This document shows, in pieces, positions 15,001 to 21,000 of a stretch of 39,513 nucleotides of DNA; positions within the stretch are counted from its first letter, which is position 1, and each line of letters begins with the position of its first letter. Made by a program: the position numbers. The stretch is from Candidatus Nezhaarchaeota archaeon WYZ-LMO8 (lineage in GTDB: Archaea > Thermoproteota > Methanomethylicia > Nezhaarchaeales > WYZ-LMO8), in NCBI GenBank assembly GCA_004347965.1, contig QNVF01000007.1, forward strand, positions 1 through 39,513, given 5' to 3'.

Positions 15001-18000
15001 AAAGCATCTGACGCATTGCCTACGATAAGGATGGACTTGAACTTACCAAGATGCTCTCTATCTAACTTATCTAGTGGAATTACTAAGTCAACGTCTTTAC
15101 TAGCAGGGCATCTACCCTCAACGTCAGCTACTAGAACTAAGGAGTAGCTTGAAGCTTCATGCAAAGCCTTGAATCCAAAGAAACCTCCACCAGCTATGAA
15201 CAGCATACTCCCCCTCATAGTGGTCAGTCCCGCGGATTTCGAGCACTAGGAGCTCCTCATCCCTTCTTCATCATCCCGAGACATTCAATACACAGTTTAG
15301 CTAATAGCTGAGCGTTAAACATCCACGCCCCTCTCACGAATGCCCCTTACAACCTTACCTATTAAGATGAAGTCATTAATCAGCATATTCTTCAATTTAG
15401 GATTATAGAGCCCAGCAGCTGGGTGATAGGTGGGTACGACTAGGAGGCTAAGATCTTCGAAGTTTATTTTAAATACTTGACCTCTAACAGTTGATATTCT
15501 CCCCCTATACGTCTTTACTCCACCTTTGAGAAGTATGTAGTTTGTTGAGTATCTGCCGAGACACACAATTAACTTGGGCTTTATAACTGCTACTTGCTTA
15601 TCAAGGTAGGGAGTACAGGCATCAACTTCATCAGGCAGGGGGTCTCTATTACCTGGAGGTCTACACTTCAAGATATTGGTTATGAAGACCTCATCTCTCC
15701 TAAAACCAGCCATTTCTAGGAGTTTATCTAGAAATTTTCCAGCAGCTCCAACAAAGGGTCTTCCCTCCACATCCTCATTGTACCCCGGGGCCTCCCCTAC
15801 GAGCATGACGTCAGCATATACGTCTCCTTGACCTGGAACTGGCTTCATCCTTGAAGACCATAACCTACACTTTCTACAACTAGCTACCTCCCTCGCTACC
15901 TCTTCTAATATCCTGACCCTCTCGTTTTCCATAACAGCTATAGAAGATTACTGAGAAGAGGCATCTTTAAGCTTTGCAGTATAGATCCATAGATCCACCA
16001 CGACGTTGCTAGTAGGGGTGTGCACCTCTGCAATGTCGTTTCAAGGACCTCTAAGTGCACCTCGATGATCCGAGTGTTTATCAGAAGCCAAGTTGATGTC
16101 GAGACGATGAGCCTATGATAAGGACCTTAGGTGGGACTTTGTTCTTAAGAAGAGGAATGATGAGTTTAAGAATAATATTATTTCTGCTATTATTACTATT
16201 GCTATCAACCATACTTCCTTGGCTCCTCATACCTATAGCCGCTTACATTGCTTACAAAGTTGGGAGATGGCTCTACAAGCTTGTTAAGAGCCTTAAATGG
16301 CCTAAGGCAGGAGGGAAGAGGAAGGAGCGCGTGAGCAGCGTTTCAACGGTTGGTGACATTCAAGTTTATGAAGTTGAAGGTATTGGACAAGCTCTCGTTG
16401 TGAAGAACGGTCTCGAAGCCCTAGGTTTAGGATGCTTAGAGGTAAGGTCTCTTGGTGGAGGTCGACTTGCTGAGCTTCTTAGTGCTATCGATGCGACGGT
16501 GAAGACAGGATTCGAGAGTAGCTTAATAGTTTCTAAGAGAACGTCGGGGGATGCTTGCTTCATGATCATGATCAAGGTCCGTAAGCCAATGATTAAGGAC
16601 TTCCTGGAGACGGCCAAGGAGGTCGTAGATGACGTGGTTAAGGGGCTTACAGCAGCCATGGGAGCAATTAAGGCTAGGTTGCCGAGGTCTGAGGTTCACG
16701 TATTGGAGTTCGATGACCTCTTAAAAGCTATTAGAGGTGTTGTAGCGTGAGCACCATAGTGGAGGTTGGGTGGATTGTTGATGGGGATGCGGATGCGCTG
16801 GTGGACACATTGAGGATCGATCTCTCTAACGTACATTTGCTAACGGTCAGCGGCGCCTGGAGCTTAAACGCTACTTGCCACTTATTGGGTCAAGTAGCGG
16901 GCTCAGTGAATTTAGTAGTAGTATCTCCTTACACAGCTGAGGGGCCTCAATGGCTTCGGCACTTGAGCCTTGGCTTGAACGCCTCGTTCAACCCCTTTAA
17001 ACCCGTTGGAGACAAGCTAGCATACTCACATTTCATTGCCGACATCTTCAAGGGAGCCTTTAGTCTGAACAATGCGCAAACCTCAGCTTTGAGGAGAGCG
17101 CTGATGAGAGCCTATCTAAGCAGTAAGGAGCCAACCGCTGAGGACGTTCTATCCGCATTAGAGATAGAATCAACCGAACTAACAAACCGAGATTCCATCG
17201 AGCTGATAGAGATCGTGGAGGCGATGTGTAGAGGTAGACTTGGAGCTGCGTGTACTAATCGATTAGAGCTCACGGATCTTCAAGCCATAATCTCGATGTC
17301 TGAGCTGCCACCAAGCTATGCCTCAATTCTATCCATGGCTATGTTAATGTATTTGGTGAAGAATGGCTTTAAAGGGGTCGTAGTACTATGCAACCTCGAT
17401 GTTCTCAGAGAATTCATTGGTTCCGCTTGGAGAAATTTCGTATACCTGGTTAATAAAATGAAGGTCGAACCTTTGACAATCATCGCCTGCACGAGCAGCG
17501 CATCGTTCACGCCACTAGAGTTGAGGACTAGAGCTCACATGATTATTGTCGGCTCACCTTTAACTCCTGAAGATGCCAAGTACGTTAGTGCTATGGTTGG
17601 CCGAAAACGTCTTAAGCTACTCAATAGCAAGGAGAGGTTCGCCTATAACCTCATTTCCTCAAGCGGAGTCATCGAGATACCGCTTGAAGAGACAGTGAAG
17701 ATGCATGTGGAAGAGGAGCTGAAAGCTCTTCTGGAAGCTCCTCGATCAATGCTTCACGCAAAGCTTGGCAATAAAGCTAAGATGGCATACGATATCTTAA
17801 GCTTCTTAAGGGATGGAGCGTCGACGAGAGACTCCGTGATATCTTATGCAATGCATAGGCTCGACGTATCATCGTTGGAGGCCTCAAGGCTTGTTAACAC
17901 ACTACTGATCCATGGACTTGCAAGTGAGGTTGTTGGGGCTGACGGTAAGTATTGGCTCAAGATTACAGTTCGAGGGCTCAACGCTTTAGAGGAGCTTGAA

Positions 18001-21000
18001 GCGTTAGAGGGGTGGTTGACACGAGAATAGAGAGAAGGGGTAGCTCATTAACTTGGGTTGTGGGAGTATCGTGTAAAGGGCTCTATACAGTCTCATTAAC
18101 ATTGTATAAATCAAGTAGTGGTTGGAGGGTGAAGAGAGAGTTAAGATTGAAGATTAAAAGAGCAGAGGATGAGAGGACCTTATTCATTGAGGATTACAGC
18201 CTACCAGAGTTCCAAGCCATTTTAGAGGCCTTCCAGTCCATGACGTCAGAGATCGACGTCGATGAAAGTGCTCGACGTCTTACCCTCGCTCTTAGAGCAT
18301 CAACGATCATCAACCTTCTCGTTCAAGAGCTCGGAGGTGTCTCTAGGTGAAGGGTGAAGTGAAGCTTGAGGACCTAGAGGGTATAGGACCCAAAACCGCA
18401 GAAAAACTTCGAAGCATTGGTATATGCTCAGCTAAGCACTTATCGCTTTTCAACGTTGATGAGCTCCTCAACTTAGTTGACGTCGATGAGAGGACTTTAA
18501 GGAGAGCTCTAGCTCACGCTAGAAGCATTTTCATGCCGTTAAGGGCTATTAAGGCCTTAGATAACTTGGCTCAAAAGTCTCTACCGCAATTAACAACTGG
18601 TGTCAAGAGCATAGATCTCCTCCTCAATGGTGGTCTAAGGCCTAGAGCAATCTACGAACTGTGTGGGCAACCAGGAGCTGGGAAGACTCAGCTTTGTCTA
18701 CAGCTATCAGTTACAATTCAGCTCTCAGCCAATAAGGGAGGTATTGGAGGTAAATGCTACTTCATGGATACTGAGGGAACCTTCAGCCTCAGCAGGGTCA
18801 AGGTCATAGCCGAGAGGTTTGGGCTCGACTCCGAGTACGCGTTAAGCAACATCTACGTCATAGACGTCATAAACACGGATCATCTACTTCAAGTGATAAC
18901 CTCAGACCTCGTTAGGGCTGTGGAGGATGGAGTGAAGTTAGTGATCGTGGACTCTTTGATGTCGAGGTTTAGAACTGAGTATGCTGGAAGAGAGTCTTTA
19001 GCTTTAAGGCAGAGTAGACTTGGTTATGCGCTTGACTGGCTTGTAAGGATAGCTAGGCTCTATGAGGTCATAGTGATCGTAACAACTCCAGTAATGGAAG
19101 TGCCAGTAGCATTTGTAAGCATAAATGAAAGACTAAGACCTGTTGGAGGCACGACATTAGCTCACGCTACGACTCACAGATTCTTCCTGACCACTAGAAG
19201 TGAAAGGGGCGTGCTTAGAGGTACCATGACCGTCCTAGATAGTCCATCTCTACCTCATGGAGCTATAGCAAGCTACTTGATAACCGACAAAGGGATTGAA
19301 GATGCGTAATAGAGAGCCTCGTATGAACGCTAAGATCTTAGACGATCGCATAATAGAGAAGCTCTTAGCGCTAATGGAGAACAAAGGATCTTCCTGGATC
19401 AAGAGGAGCATGAAGAGGGTGCATGATGTTTATGAATGCGACAGGAATACATGGATCGTTAGAGGGAGAAAAAGTCTCGGAGATGAAGAGACAATATACG
19501 TGGTTGAGTATGATGAAGAAAAAGGAAGCTTCAAGTGTACTTGTCACCAACCCTACAAACCCTACGCTAGGAGTAGGAGACGAGCATGCACTCACGTGGG
19601 TGCATGTCTCTTTCATCACATATTTTTCTAACTTCTTAGCATCGAGGTAAGAAAAGTGGGAAGATCTTATCTAGTAGTTGGCGACGGCAACAAACCCTTA
19701 CTGAAGTCGCTGGAGATCGCAAAGGGTAAGAGGATTGTGGTCTCTGACAAGCCATTAGAGGTTGATGGTTTCATCGAAATTTTAGATATATTTAAACAGT
19801 TCAATCAAATAGCTTCATTACCTCTAGAGCTTTCAGAGAACGATAGTCTTGTACTAGACCTGTATGCTCACGTCTCTAGACTATCTGCTTTAAGTAGGTA
19901 CGCTAGCGTGAAGTTGTACTTGAGGTTGTGCAGGATGTTGATTGCGTCAGCTAAAGCTAAGTGCTTTAATATCTACATTAATTGTAATAGGAGCTCGAAA
20001 CTTTATGTGAAGCTAAGGGCTACTGTTGACGAGGAGGTGCCTTGCTAATGGAGGTGAAGATCATACCGATAAGAGGCATACCAGTACCAGTCAAACCTGG
20101 AGATGACATAGCGAAACTCATATGCGAAGCAGCAGAAAGGCAGGGGACACCGCTGCTTGACGGCGACATCCTCGTCGTCTCCCAGAAGATAGTTTCGAAA
20201 GCTTGTGGTCACATATTCAGGCTAAGTGAGGTGAAGCCATCAGAAGAGGCAGTTAAGATATCAAGGATCTTGGAGAAGTCTCCAGAGCTTGTAGAAATAA
20301 TACTTAGAGAAACCAATAGAATAGTCAGGCTTAAGAACAAGCACATAATATGCGAAACCAAACATGGCTTTGTTTGCGCCAATGCTGGAGTGGATGTCTC
20401 CAACGTTGATGGAGGTTTAAGTGCGGTGACCTTACCCCTAGACCCTGACAAGGAGGCATCTAAGATAAGAGAGACAGTAAAGAAAATGAAGGGAGTGGAC
20501 ATTGCGGTCATAATTAGTGACACTCATGGCAGAGCTTTCAGGAGAGGTCAAGTGAATGTGGCGATAGGCGTAGCTGGGATGAAACCTTTGAGGGACAGGA
20601 GGGGGGAGAGAGACCTCTTCGGCTACATCCTCAAGTTCAAATTCATAGCCATAGTCGATGAGATAGCATCTGCAGCTGAGCTAGTAATGGGTCAAGCCGA
20701 TGAAGGTGTTCCAGCAGCAATCATAAGAGGACTAAGGTATGAAAGAGACGAGTCTGCATCAATTAAGGATCTTGTAATGTCTCCAGAGGAGGACTTGTTC
20801 CGTTAATTTAAGCCTAAGCGAAGAGTTTAAAACTGACCAGCTACAGAAGTAGCAGACTACCACGAGGTCAGCGATTCGGAGGTAGCAAGAAATGAGCAAA
20901 CCAAGACCTGGAGAGAATGTTGTCCTTGTTGGGAACAAACCAACTATGAATTATGTGCTTGCAACAGTAATACAATTCAACCAAGGAGCTGACAAGGTCG

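What a model noticed while it worked through the whole genome (the two positions that open the first line are those of the whole stretch)
16139..20048. Second full-length RadA in a conserved operon with a Walker-A-less HerA-fold protein
Beside its ordinary RadA (g00669) and RadB (g00671) the genome has a second full-length RadA with the N-terminal helix-hairpin-helix domain (g01303), set in a six-gene operon with a membrane-anchored protein, a HerA/VirB4-fold protein that has lost its Walker A motif (g01301), and three small proteins, one with a SWIM-like zinc finger. I read this as a separate strand-exchange machine, a specialised recombinase with its own loader or DNA-handling scaffold, perhaps for imported or damaged DNA. 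Known archaeal RadA paralogs (RadB, aRadC) lack the N-terminal domain, so a lineage of complete second recombinases with a dedicated partner set would be a new piece of archaeal recombination, of intere [...]
Evidence so far: g01303 (320 aa): Pfam HHH_5, Rad51, ATPase; Walker A GQPGAGKTQ present; 35% identical to own RadA g00669 over 319 aa, while g00669 is 62% identical to Aeropyrum RadA. ML tree of 25 RadA-type proteins: canonical RadAs (own g00669, Thermofilum pendens, Heimdall-, Altiarchaeota) form one clade (100/100, stem 0.95) that excludes g01303 and its relatives (Nezhaarchaeales 78-87% id; a group at about 50% id incl. a Vulcanisaeta protein; Thermofilaceae at 42-43%; call 141). g01301 (427 aa, no Pfam/PADLOC hit, calls 103, 105): AF2 model from 16 relatives, pLDDT 86, Foldseek best hits HerA-NurA of T. 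kodakarensis (9x1m, E 2e-10), S. solfataricus HerA, VirB4, TrwB; no GK[ST] anywhere in the sequence an [...]
(Added by a program. Inside this text positions count along the whole contig: contig position 1 is position 1 of the stretch shown here. "Call 12" and the like, gene names such as g00115 and contig names such as C1 are that model's own, and its searches are not shown. The text may have been shortened before it was handed on; [...] marks where a part breaks off. The agent that wrote the report below was given it as the finding of a first reader that could run no searches.)

Follow-up and report, generated by a model that had tools for sequence, protein, structure and literature searches.

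The report
RadA paralog module with SWIM partner
A hot-spring archaeon and many of its relatives carry a conserved gene cluster that pairs an extra, complete RadA recombinase with a small SWIM zinc-finger protein, a dead HerA/VirB4-like ATPase and a membrane anchor, which resembles the pairing of recombinase paralogs with SWIM proteins in eukaryotic DNA repair.

Summary
Window 16115-20048 (+) carries six overlapping or closely spaced ORFs, all under purifying selection. g01303 is a full-length RadA-type protein, 35% identical to the genome's canonical RadA. g01301 folds like HerA/VirB4/TrwB/DndH-C and has no Walker A. This is ancestral: 0 of 20 relatives have GK[ST].

New findings:
- The cluster recurs in the same order in 17 of 20 related loci across several families of Methanomethylicia and other Thermoproteota. 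It sits in housekeeping contexts.
- The module RadAs lie outside a well-supported clade of all other full-length RadAs. They keep Walker A/B and the L1/L2 motifs but have lost the Phe of the FxxA polymerisation motif (0 of 25, against 42 of 49).
- g01304 belongs to a divergent SWIM family. That family also sits next to KaiC-type ATPases and PolB, and is fused to XPD/DinG-type helicases.
- The sixth gene is demonstrably RadB-like in 5 of 20 loci and is fused to the SWIM gene in one.
- A membrane-tethered ArsR-type regulator is a frequent neighbour.

My best reading (0.45) is a Rad51-paralog-type recombination accessory complex, analogous to Shu/SWS1-SWSAP1 and held at the membrane. An autonomous import recombinase (0.25) is not excluded. 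No function was tested, and no published description was found.

The parts
13832..14371 (-). ArsR/MarR-type winged-helix regulator with a C-terminal hydrophobic membrane region. It is a recurrent neighbour of the module; here two genes separate it from the module.
   Evidence: Pfam MarR 2.6e-11, HTH_20 2.6e-10, HTH_5 9.7e-8. Hydrophobic segment at residues 130-179. The same HTH plus membrane-region architecture flanks the module in 8 of 12 other loci whose flanks were scanned.
15933..16114 (.). 182-bp intergenic region shared with the divergent UDG gene; presumed promoter region of the operon.
   Evidence: Sequence read. A/T-rich TTTATC lies about 32-37 nt before the ATG at 16115. The promoter assignment is inference only.
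16115..16750 (+). g01300 (p1): membrane-anchored protein with an N-terminal hydrophobic helical hairpin and a ferredoxin/ACT-like alpha/beta domain.
   Evidence: Hydrophobic segment 9-47. AF2 model pLDDT 76.2 with helices 9-33 and 35-61. Only generic fold matches. Homologous to positional counterparts: hhalign own vs f2/f3 group prob 97.1, E 5.6e-11.
16747..18030 (+). g01301 (p2): HerA/VirB4/TrwB-fold protein without Walker A, with a C-terminal winged helix.
   Evidence: Conserved LGxNASxNPF motif. PadR-like winged-helix hits at profile positions 371-440.
18012..18350 (+). g01302 (p3): small conserved protein of unknown fold.
   Evidence: Homologous across groups: hhalign prob 84-97.5. No family or Atlas hit.
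18347..19309 (+). g01303 (p4, RadA2): full-length RadA-family ATPase with an HhH N-domain.
19296..19631 (+). g01304 (p5): divergent SWIM zinc-finger protein.
   Evidence: Invariant C81, C83, C98, H100, G102. 21 of 148 family relatives hit Pfam SWIM at E<=0.01. ESM Atlas feature hits to SWIM clusters score 0.94.
19656..20048 (+). g01305 (p6): sixth gene. Its positional counterparts are RadB-like in 5 of 20 loci; for the window's own protein this ancestry is not shown.

Best explanation
This is a vertically inherited chromosomal module. It encodes a hetero-oligomeric accessory complex for homologous recombination or repair, built around a RadA paralog.

Proposed roles:
- RadA2 (g01303) still binds ATP and DNA, but its subunit-subunit 'knob' (the Phe of FxxA) is replaced by Ala, Val or Ile. 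I infer that it does not join or build canonical RadA filaments in the usual way and instead acts like a Rad51 paralog.
- The SWIM protein (g01304) is its obligatory adaptor, as SWS1/Shu2 is for SWSAP1 and for Shu1-Psy3-Csm2.
- The sixth gene was, and in some lineages still is, a small RadB-type subunit.
- The Walker-A-less HerA/VirB4-fold protein with its winged helix (g01301) serves as a non-motor DNA-binding scaffold. g01300 holds it at the membrane, and g01302 is a further small subunit.
- A membrane-tethered ArsR-type regulator probably controls the operon.

Shown: the genes, their conservation and order, purifying selection, the state of the motifs, the fold of g01301, and the separate phylogenetic position of RadA2.

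Inferred: that the proteins bind one another, that they act on or beside canonical RadA, and that they sit at the membrane.
For: Linkage:
- In 20 of 20 loci picked by a g01301 match, a RadA-type gene follows on the same strand. A g01304-type gene follows in 19 of 20.
- All six positions are filled in the same order in 17 of 20 loci.
- g01300, g01301, g01302 and g01304 are true homologues of their positional counterparts.

Vertical inheritance, not mobile:
- Flanks are housekeeping genes and differ between families.
- g01301 was found in 29 of 401 sampled genomes of the phylum, in nearly all sampled members of six families (f1 6/9, f2 3/4, f3 1/1, f5 5/5, f6 1/1, f7 4/4).
- Five of six proteins have no PADLOC hit.
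- The g01304 DNA pattern gave 0 matches in 2.9 million viral contigs, against 12 in genome contigs, all labelled as archaea of the TACK group.

RadA2 is distinct:
- 49 other full-length RadAs form a clade (SH-aLRT 99) that excludes all 22 module RadAs. One clade of module RadAs is not rejected.
- At the Phe column of FxxA, module RadAs have V11, I6, A5, T3 and no F in 25. Canonical RadAs have F in 42 of 49.
- Walker A G/K, Walker B D, L1 R..RQ and L2 GG..H are kept in 25 of 25.

SWIM with RecA-family partners is a recurring theme:
- g01304 relatives lie next to RadA-type genes in two variant modules (L105, L111).
- They lie next to KaiC-type ATPases in L134 and L135 (PF06745, 180 and 179 bits).
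- The SWIM gene is fused to the sixth gene in L047.

Sixth gene:
- L048 and L049 keep a P-loop and match RadB-type paralogs (hhalign prob 98.2, E 3e-14).
- The L050/L051/L053 group matches them (prob 90.5) and RadB-type paralogs (prob 84.1).
- The best PDB hit of the family profile is RadB 2cvf, E 0.0017.

Eukaryotic parallel, from passages read in PMC6316741: SWS1/Shu2 SWIM proteins bind Rad51 paralogs in every organism studied, and SWSAP1 is closest in sequence to archaeal RadA.
Against: - No binding, expression or activity data exist.
- g01304 shows no sequence similarity to any solved chain (profile against PDB, no relevant hit at E<=10). The likeness to Shu2/SWS1 therefore rests on the domain class and the kind of partner, not on demonstrated homology. 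SWIM domains occur in many unrelated contexts.
- g01304 relatives also sit next to PolB (L125, L137), are fused to XPD/DinG-type helicases (34-37 of 148), and in 12 of 20 further loci have unknown neighbours. The family is a general DNA-transaction adaptor, not a RadA-specific one.
- RadA2 keeps every catalytic and DNA-binding motif and the HhH domain, as a working recombinase would.
- The changed knob could instead insulate a separate homo-filament.
- The window's own g01305 has only weak colinear profile matches (E 0.008), and leave-one-out HMMs find nothing.
- A membrane anchor has no counterpart in known Rad51-paralog complexes.
- One genome (G332, 74% complete) has the module without any SWIM gene.
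Confidence: 0.45

Rival explanations
1. One reading: an autonomous second strand-exchange machine. RadA2 forms its own filaments, kept apart from canonical RadA by the altered polymerisation knob. The other five proteins load it on a special substrate at the membrane, such as incoming or damaged DNA.
For: All catalytic and DNA-binding motifs and the HhH domain are kept in 25 of 25. Selection on RadA2 is strong (dN/dS 0.04-0.06). g01300 is membrane-anchored, and g01301 has the fold of DNA translocases of conjugation and import systems (VirB4, TrwB, HerA). In Ced/Ted systems a VirB4-like ATPase works with small two-helix membrane proteins (PMC9905601, passages read). The Ala of the motif is kept in 21 of 25 module RadAs, so an oligomer contact may persist.
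Against: g01301 has no Walker A in 0 of 20 members, so it cannot power transport. The operon holds no polytopic channel gene and no pilin gene. The soluble domain of g01300 gives only generic ferredoxin/ACT-like matches. The loss of Phe argues against canonical polymerisation; this is inference from recalled Rad51/BRC knowledge.
Confidence: 0.25
2. An anti-virus or other conflict system. A RecA-like sensor ATPase and a HerA-like scaffold detect foreign DNA, and a membrane protein acts as effector.
For: HerA-fold proteins of defence systems (Sir2-HerA, DUF4297-HerA, DndH) are among the fold hits. RadA2 gives weak PADLOC hits (mad8 1.8e-5, IetA 1.1e-3). The ESM Atlas clusters nearest to g01304 are largely viral SWIM proteins. 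g01304 relatives are multi-copy in some genomes (G019 6 matches, G214 8 matches).
Against: g01300, g01301, g01302, g01304 and g01305 have no PADLOC family. The module is near-universal and single-copy within six families and sits in stable housekeeping neighbourhoods. In the RadA2 tree, loci of the same family group together. No nuclease or toxin domain is present in the window's operon. The g01304 pattern gave 0 hits in viral contigs.
Confidence: 0.08
3. A regulatory or signalling ATPase assembly not concerned with recombination, as many archaeal KaiC/RadA-like proteins are. The winged helix of g01301 and the ArsR-type neighbour would act in transcription control.
For: Two winged-helix proteins are linked to the module. 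KaiC-type ATPases pair with the same SWIM family in L134 and L135.
Against: RadA2 keeps the DNA-binding loops L1 and L2 and the HhH domain typical of recombinases. Other partners of the SWIM family are PolB and XPD/DinG-type helicases, which are DNA enzymes.
Confidence: 0.05

Closest known systems
Eukaryotic Shu complex (yeast Shu2-Shu1-Psy3-Csm2; human SWS1-SWSAP1)
   Same: A small SWIM zinc-finger protein (CxC...CxH followed by A/S at +3) is partnered with RecA-fold Rad51 paralogs. One of these paralogs keeps Walker motifs, like SWSAP1, and others have lost them, like Shu1, Psy3 and Csm2. Passages of PMC6316741 and PMC5727457 were read.
   Different: No detectable sequence similarity between g01304 and solved chains. 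The partner here is a full-length RadA with an HhH domain. There are extra subunits: a dead HerA/VirB4-fold protein, a membrane anchor and g01302. The module occurs in Thermoproteota, not shown in Asgard archaea. Binding is untested.
Archaeal RadA paralogs RadB and aRadC/KaiC-like (and Sulfolobus RadA paralogs)
   Same: RecA-superfamily accessory proteins encoded beside the canonical recombinase function. The sixth gene is RadB-like in 5 of 20 loci. A KaiC-type ATPase pairs with the same SWIM family in L134 and L135.
   Different: RadA2 has the N-terminal HhH domain that those paralogs lack (their domain make-up is recalled). RadA2 also comes with a fixed partner set.
Second RadA clade of Asgard archaea (PMC12722695)
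   Same: A duplicated full-length RadA within one archaeal genome.
   Different: That paper (abstract and passages read) reports no partner genes. Whether the Asgard paralogs have SWIM neighbours was not tested here. The module RadAs here branch outside the clade that holds the one Heimdallarchaeota RadA included.
HerA-NurA, VirB4/TrwB and Ced/Ted DNA translocases
   Same: The fold of g01301 and its association with a small membrane protein that has a two-helix hairpin.
   Different: No Walker A in any member. No N-terminal barrel domain is modelled: about 30 residues precede the core. No NurA, channel or pilin gene is present.

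Membership tests
RadA/Rad51 recombinases (for g01303) | Rad51 ATPase core plus N-terminal HhH domain | tested here: met
   Pfam Rad51 5.9e-60 (residues 77-320) and HHH_5 1.2e-7 (residues 6-59).
RadA/Rad51 recombinases (for g01303) | Walker A, Walker B and the L1 and L2 DNA-binding loops | tested here: met
   G107, G112, K113, Q115, D202, R209, R221, Q222, G267, G268 and H273 are kept in 25 of 25 module RadAs. Loop names are recalled.
RadA/Rad51 recombinases (for g01303) | FxxA polymerisation motif in the linker | tested here: not met
   At the Phe column, module RadAs have V11, I6, A5, T3 (0 F of 25) and canonical RadAs have F in 42 of 49. The Ala is kept in 21 of 25. The role of the motif is recalled.
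Canonical archaeal RadA (orthologue of the housekeeping recombinase) | Reaches the curated equivalog scores and groups with canonical RadAs | tested here: not met
   NF003301 scores 259.4 against a cut-off of 259 (just met). TIGR02236 scores 245.8 against 361.15 (not met). g01303 is excluded from the 49-row canonical clade, SH-aLRT 99.
HerA/FtsK/VirB4 P-loop translocases (for g01301) | RecA-like ATPase fold of this superfamily | tested here: met
   Foldseek E 3e-9 to 7e-9 and TM 0.40-0.64 (normalised by target length) to DndH-C, HerA and VirB4. Weak profile hits to DUF87 8yho (0.0022) and VirB4 (0.75).
HerA/FtsK/VirB4 P-loop translocases (for g01301) | Walker A GxxxxGK[ST] and Walker B DE | tested here: not met
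   GK[ST] occurs in 0 of 20. Walker-B-like DEA/EDAH is seen only in some members, for example L048 and L050.
SWIM zinc finger, PF04434 (for g01304) | CxCxnCxH zinc-ligand pattern | tested here: met
   C81, C83, C98 and H100 are invariant in 19 of 19, with n = 13-15. The motif is present in 139 of 148 wider relatives.
SWIM zinc finger, PF04434 (for g01304) | Match to the Pfam model | tested here: inconclusive
   0 of 19 module members match at E<=0.1. 21 of 148 wider relatives found with the g01304 profile match at E<=0.01 (best 1.7e-5), and one passes the cut-off (20.4 against 19.6). The fold was not modelled.
Shu2/SWS1 family and Shu complex | Sequence or structural homology of the SWIM subunit to Shu2/SWS1 | tested here: inconclusive
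   The profile of 19 sequences against all PDB chains gave no relevant hit at E<=10. No model of g01304 was made, so no fold comparison was possible.
Shu2/SWS1 family and Shu complex | Physical complex of the SWIM subunit with Rad51 paralogs that promotes Rad51 filaments | not testable with these tools
   Only gene linkage and one gene fusion (L047) bear on it.
RadB (for g01305) | Small RecA core with a P-loop and similarity to RadB | tested here: inconclusive
   The P-loop is present in 2 of 20. RadB-type similarity is shown for L048/L049 (prob 98.2) and for L050/L051/L053 (prob 84.1), but the window's family gives prob 0.3. NCBIfam finds no family for the window protein.
Ced/Ted DNA import systems | Active VirB4-like ATPase, VirB6-like polytopic channel and VirB2-like pilin | tested here: not met
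   The ATPase motif is absent. Of the operon ORFs scanned for hydrophobic segments, g01300 has a single segment (residues 9-47), not the six or seven of a channel. System features are taken from PMC9905601 passages.
Known anti-phage defence systems (PADLOC) | Match to a PADLOC model | tested here: not met
   0 families for five proteins at E<=0.1. g01303 gives only weak P-loop-region hits.

The most novel reading that the evidence does not exclude
The module is the prokaryotic counterpart, and possibly a forerunner, of the eukaryotic Rad51-paralog/SWIM mediator complexes (Shu, SWS1-SWSAP1). On this reading, the partnership of a SWIM zinc finger with RecA-family paralogs arose in archaea. Here it is additionally wired to a membrane-anchored, catalytically dead HerA/VirB4 ring, so that recombination is organised at the cell membrane.
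Probability: 0.15. Interest if true: 0.9.

Novelty: new variant of a known kind. Interest (0 to 1): 0.72.

Why it matters
Archaeal recombination is thought to run on one RadA plus truncated paralogs (RadB, aRadC) whose roles are poorly understood. How eukaryotes acquired their elaborate Rad51-paralog mediators, including the SWIM-containing Shu complex, is an open question.

A conserved archaeal operon that joins a complete but divergent RadA, a SWIM protein and a RadB-like subunit gives a concrete set of thermostable proteins on which to test how paralogs and SWIM adaptors control recombinase filaments. The dead HerA/VirB4-fold protein and the membrane anchor would be a new kind of scaffold for a recombination factor.

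Relatives occur in complete single-contig Thermoproteota genomes and in a protein recorded from the named species Vulcanisaeta thermophila. Experiments therefore need not rest on metagenome bins alone.

Tried and rejected
- Complex prediction of RadA2 + g01305 + g01304 (own alignments) gave 'no answer', score 0.11 against a mark of 0.32. This is no evidence either way.
- The look-up of sequencing runs listed 14 DNA holders from hot-spring metagenomes and no RNA holder, so expression could not be examined and read laying was not used.
A degenerate DNA pattern was used instead.
- g01302: no Pfam or NCBIfam family, only one weak PHROGs hit (E 0.045) and no Atlas hit.
- g01301 as a RecA/RadA relative: hhalign against RadA2 gave prob 0.2.
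- Leave-one-out HMMs of the sixth gene found nothing. I therefore dropped the claim that all g01305 counterparts are demonstrably one family.
- The 170-aa ORF of the variant modules looked to me like a PD-(D/E)xK nuclease from a recalled motif, but it has no Pfam hit at E<=1e-4 and no PDB hit at E<=5. The claim is not made.
- UDG next to the operon as a functional link to abasic-site tolerance: the adjacency holds only in the own family (3 of 3 loci, L034-L036) and in none of the other 17 loci, so I do not rely on it.
- Literature searches found no description of this module: SWIM domain/RadA/archaea/Shu2, RadA paralog/aRadC, SWS1/SWSAP1/archaea, RadA/HerA/SWIM/gene neighborhood, invariant SWIM domain/Shu2/archaeal, RadA2/archaea, and SWIM zinc finger/archaeal/recombinase/operon. 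Subscription journals and bioRxiv supplements were not searchable.

Full report
WHAT IS THERE

Window 16115-20048 (+) holds six ORFs: g01300 to g01305, called p1 to p6 below. They overlap by 4, 19, 4 and 14 nt and are then separated by a 24-nt gap.

- p4 (g01303, 320 aa) matches Pfam Rad51 (5.9e-60) and HHH_5 (1.2e-7). It only just reaches NCBIfam's RadA model NF003301 (259.4 against 259) and misses TIGR02236 (245.8 against 361.15).
- The other five proteins have no Pfam, NCBIfam or PADLOC family, and no PHROGs hit better than E 0.03.
- The genome also holds a canonical RadA (308.7 bits) and a RadB-type gene on contig C17. p4 is 35% identical to that RadA over 319 aa.
- All six genes are under purifying selection. 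dN/dS between the window and L034 is 0.06-0.12 at dS 0.86-1.13. In 4 of 18 pairs dS was saturated.
- The window around the cluster is ordinary housekeeping DNA. It has no integrase or transposase domain among the 29 further ORFs scanned and no unusual composition.

CHECK OF THE FOLD CLAIM

- I rebuilt the p2 (g01301) model from 21 sequences: pLDDT 86.4, pTM 0.82.
- Foldseek against the PDB gave DndH-C 7es4 (3.3e-9), S. solfataricus HerA 4d2i (4.1e-9), VirB4 4ag5 (5.4e-9), T. kodakarensis HerA-NurA 9x1m (7.4e-9), TrwB 1e9s (3.4e-7) and defence-system HerA proteins. There were 150 hits at E<=0.001.
- The family profile gives weak sequence hits to a DUF87 protein (0.0022), to RFC small subunit (7.5e-4) and, for the C-terminus, to PadR-type winged helices.
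- No member of the family has GK[ST] (0 of 20). The loss of Walker A is therefore ancestral to the family as sampled.
- A Walker-B-like DEA/EDAH survives only in some members, and LGxNASxNPF is the best conserved motif.
- About 30 residues precede the core, so no separate N-terminal domain is modelled.

CONSERVATION

- A whole-genome search of 401 genomes sampled from the phylum found p2 in 29, counting the window's genome. By family: f1 6/9, f2 3/4, f3 1/1, f5 5/5, f6 1/1, f7 4/4, f9 1/2, but f4 only 2/32.
- I fetched 20 of these loci. A RadA-type gene follows p2 on the same strand in 20 of 20 (38-90% identity to p4). A p5-type gene follows in 19 of 20.
- All six positions are filled in the same order in 17 of 20 loci. 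The exceptions:
  - L047: p5 and p6 are one 265-aa protein.
  - L049: no p5, and none elsewhere in that 74%-complete genome.
  - L052: no p3 ORF, and the contig ends inside p5.
- Profile-profile comparison shows that p1, p2, p3 and p5 of the window's family are true homologues of their positional counterparts. For p2 and p5 the probability is at least 97.8 against every group. For p3 it is 84-97.5. For p1 it is 80-97 against three groups and only 10 against the Culexarchaeia group.
- cofE, UDG and g01298 accompany the cluster only in the window's own family (L034-L036) and are not part of it.
- Public titles of matching records name Nezhaarchaeales, Methanomethylicia, Culexarchaeum, Culexmicrobium and Thermoprotei bins.
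- An ArsR/MarR-type regulator with a C-terminal membrane region flanks the module in 8 of 12 further loci whose flanks I scanned (not seen in L046, L047, L048, L105). It lies two genes upstream in the window, at 13832-14371(-).

THE RADA LINEAGE

12 of 28 have two matches of at least 285 bits besides the module RadA.
- Sister genomes of the window's genus have such a further full-length RadA and a 246-247 aa paralog. Neither was found in the window's own 93%-complete assembly.
- I built a quick LG+G4 tree of 85 rows: 22 module RadAs, 46 other hits, 11 short paralogs used as outgroup, and 6 named references. Fragments at contig ends, and RadB-type hits outside the own family, were left out.
- In that tree, 49 non-module full-length RadAs form a clade with SH-aLRT 99 that excludes all 22 module RadAs. 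The clade includes Thermofilum pendens, a Heimdallarchaeota protein and an Altiarchaeota protein.
- The module RadAs fall in three basal groups. The largest also holds the Vulcanisaeta thermophila protein P0048, a Thermofilaceae protein and a second copy from G174 (L105). L105 has its own SWIM gene nearby.
- Holding these 25 rows together gives a tree 12.85 lnL units better than the free search found, with p-AU 0.746. Three of the 25 were added after seeing the tree, and long-branch effects towards the outgroup cannot be excluded.
- Column counts: Walker A, Walker B and the L1 and L2 signature residues are kept in 25 of 25. The Phe of the FxxA polymerisation motif is present in 42 of 49 canonical RadAs and in 0 of 25 module RadAs (V11, I6, A5, T3; Ala in the window's family). 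The Ala of the motif is kept in 21 of 25.
- From recalled knowledge of Rad51, RadA and BRC repeats, this Phe is the knob that docks into the neighbouring protomer.

THE SWIM PARTNER

- p5 has invariant C81, C83, C98, H100 and G102 (CxC-x13-15-CxHxG[A/S]) in 19 of 19 sequences.
- It does not hit Pfam SWIM directly (0 of 19 at E<=0.1), nor any relevant solved chain.
- ESM Atlas feature neighbours are SWIM clusters at 0.94.
- A profile search of 1.84 billion representatives found 225 relatives at E<=0.001. I scanned 148 of the best 150. 21 match Pfam SWIM at E<=0.01 (best 1.7e-5). 34-37 carry DEAD/ResIII/Helicase_C_2 helicase domains behind an N-terminal p5-like domain, and some have inteins. 139 of 148 keep the motif.
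- In the phylum sample, p5 relatives occur in 65 of 401 genomes. One family has them in 18 of 23 genomes, many of these complete single-contig genomes, and some genomes have several copies.
- In 20 further loci not chosen by context:
  - a RadA-type gene lies within about 2.2 kb in three (L118, L130 and the full module L133);
  - a KaiC-type ATPase lies directly beside p5 in two (L134, L135; PF06745, 180 and 179 bits);
  - a family-B DNA polymerase lies beside it in two (L125, L137);
  - the neighbours are uninformative in the rest.
- Two variant modules (L105, L111) place the SWIM gene upstream of the RadA2-type gene.
- The SWIM family is therefore a general companion of DNA enzymes. RecA-superfamily ATPases are its most frequent identifiable partner.

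THE SIXTH GENE

- L048 and L049 keep a P-loop (GEAGAGKT and GEAGSGRS). They match RadB-type paralogs at prob 98.2, E 3e-14.
- The L050/L051/L053 group matches them (prob 90.5) and RadB-type paralogs (prob 84.1).
- The whole-family profile has RadB 2cvf as its best PDB hit (E 0.0017).
- For the window's own g01305, only weak colinear matches exist: E 0.008 to the Culexarchaeia group, and E 0.0068 for the family against RadA2 over the Walker-B strand and the following helix. Leave-one-out HMMs find nothing. RecA-fold ancestry of g01305 is plausible by position but not shown.

THE MEMBRANE PROTEIN

- p1 has one long hydrophobic segment (residues 9-47), which AF2 models as two helices, followed by an alpha/beta domain.
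- Fold searches return only generic ferredoxin/ACT/YbjN-like matches.

INTERPRETATION

The safest statement is that this is a conserved, vertically inherited module for DNA recombination or repair, built around a divergent RadA.

I favour (0.45) a Rad51-paralog-type accessory complex for four reasons:
- the polymerisation knob is lost while the catalytic motifs stay;
- a SWIM protein is all but obligatory (present in 21 of the 23 module loci examined, counting the window, L105 and L111);
- the sixth subunit is RadB-like where recognisable, and is once fused to the SWIM protein;
- in eukaryotes exactly this pairing, a SWIM protein with Rad51 paralogs, forms the Shu/SWS1-SWSAP1 mediators (PMC6316741 and PMC5727457, passages read).

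The dead HerA/VirB4-fold protein with a winged helix would be a DNA-binding scaffold, and p1 its membrane tether. All of this is inference.

An import role has no specific support. A defence role (0.08) fits the fold relatives and the SWIM family's viral look-alikes, but not the distribution or the neighbourhoods.

NOVELTY

Seven literature searches found no description of a RadA-SWIM-HerA-like module in archaea. Full-length RadA duplicates as such are known in Asgard archaea. One paper's introduction says loosely that Shu2 orthologues are conserved 'from archaea to humans' (PMC5727457). I could not see the source of that remark, and it may bear on priority. I rate the finding a new variant of a known kind, namely recombinase-paralog accessory systems, with an unusual membrane-anchored, motor-dead scaffold.

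Noticed in passing
L067, L068, L069, L071, L072 and L112-L115 (sister genomes); own genome: Genomes of the same genus carry a further canonical-clade full-length RadA (Pfam Rad51 326-336 bits) and a 246-247 aa Rad51-family paralog. Neither was found in the window's own 93%-complete assembly. This could be a real loss or an assembly gap.
   Followed up: partly
Proteins P0211-P0289; Pfam scans: The g01304-type SWIM domain occurs as the N-terminus of 500-1100 aa DEAD/ResIII + Helicase_C_2 (XPD/DinG-type) helicases, several of them interrupted by LAGLIDADG inteins.
   Followed up: partly
L134:5189-6327, L135:5980-7218, L125:3808-6333, L137:5959-8426: g01304 relatives sit directly beside KaiC-type (aRadC-like) ATPases in two genomes and beside family-B DNA polymerases in two others.
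   Followed up: partly
L105 (G174) and L111 (G400): A variant module has the SWIM gene upstream of the RadA2-type gene and a shared 170-aa ORF (38% identical) without any Pfam or PDB hit. L105 runs on into a DEAD_2-type helicase fragment. L111 also has p1- and p2-like genes and an extra 322-aa ORF.
   Followed up: partly
G019 and G214: g01304 relatives are multi-copy in some complete genomes (6 and 8 matches), and three of the eight G214 copies contain stop codons. This hints at a repeated, possibly mobile, element in those lineages.
   Followed up: no
window 13832-14371 (-), and the HTH gene beside the module in L037, L039, L040, L043, L049, L050, L053 and L111: An ArsR/MarR-type regulator with a 50-100 residue C-terminal hydrophobic region is a recurrent neighbour of the module. 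Such a membrane-tethered transcription factor is unusual.
   Followed up: partly
window 15315-15932 (-), 28589-29212 (+), 30439-31461 (+): Three base-excision-repair genes lie in the window: a family UDG gene divergent from the operon, a methylpurine-DNA glycosylase and an AP endonuclease 2.
   Followed up: no
window 21345-22592 (-), 11515-12561 (+), 14601-15218 (-): ORFs of 415, 349 and 205 aa have no Pfam family. The 205-aa ORF is conserved next to UDG in the own family.
   Followed up: no
window 20042-20806 (+): cofE (F420-0:gamma-glutamyl ligase) overlaps the last module gene by 7 nt, and it follows the module in the three own-family loci fetched but in none of the other 17. This looks like lineage-specific coupling of unrelated genes.
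   Followed up: partly
L053 (G158), p2 region: A withheld (N) stretch interrupts the p2 gene in this locus, so its p1 and p2 were left out of the alignments.
   Followed up: no
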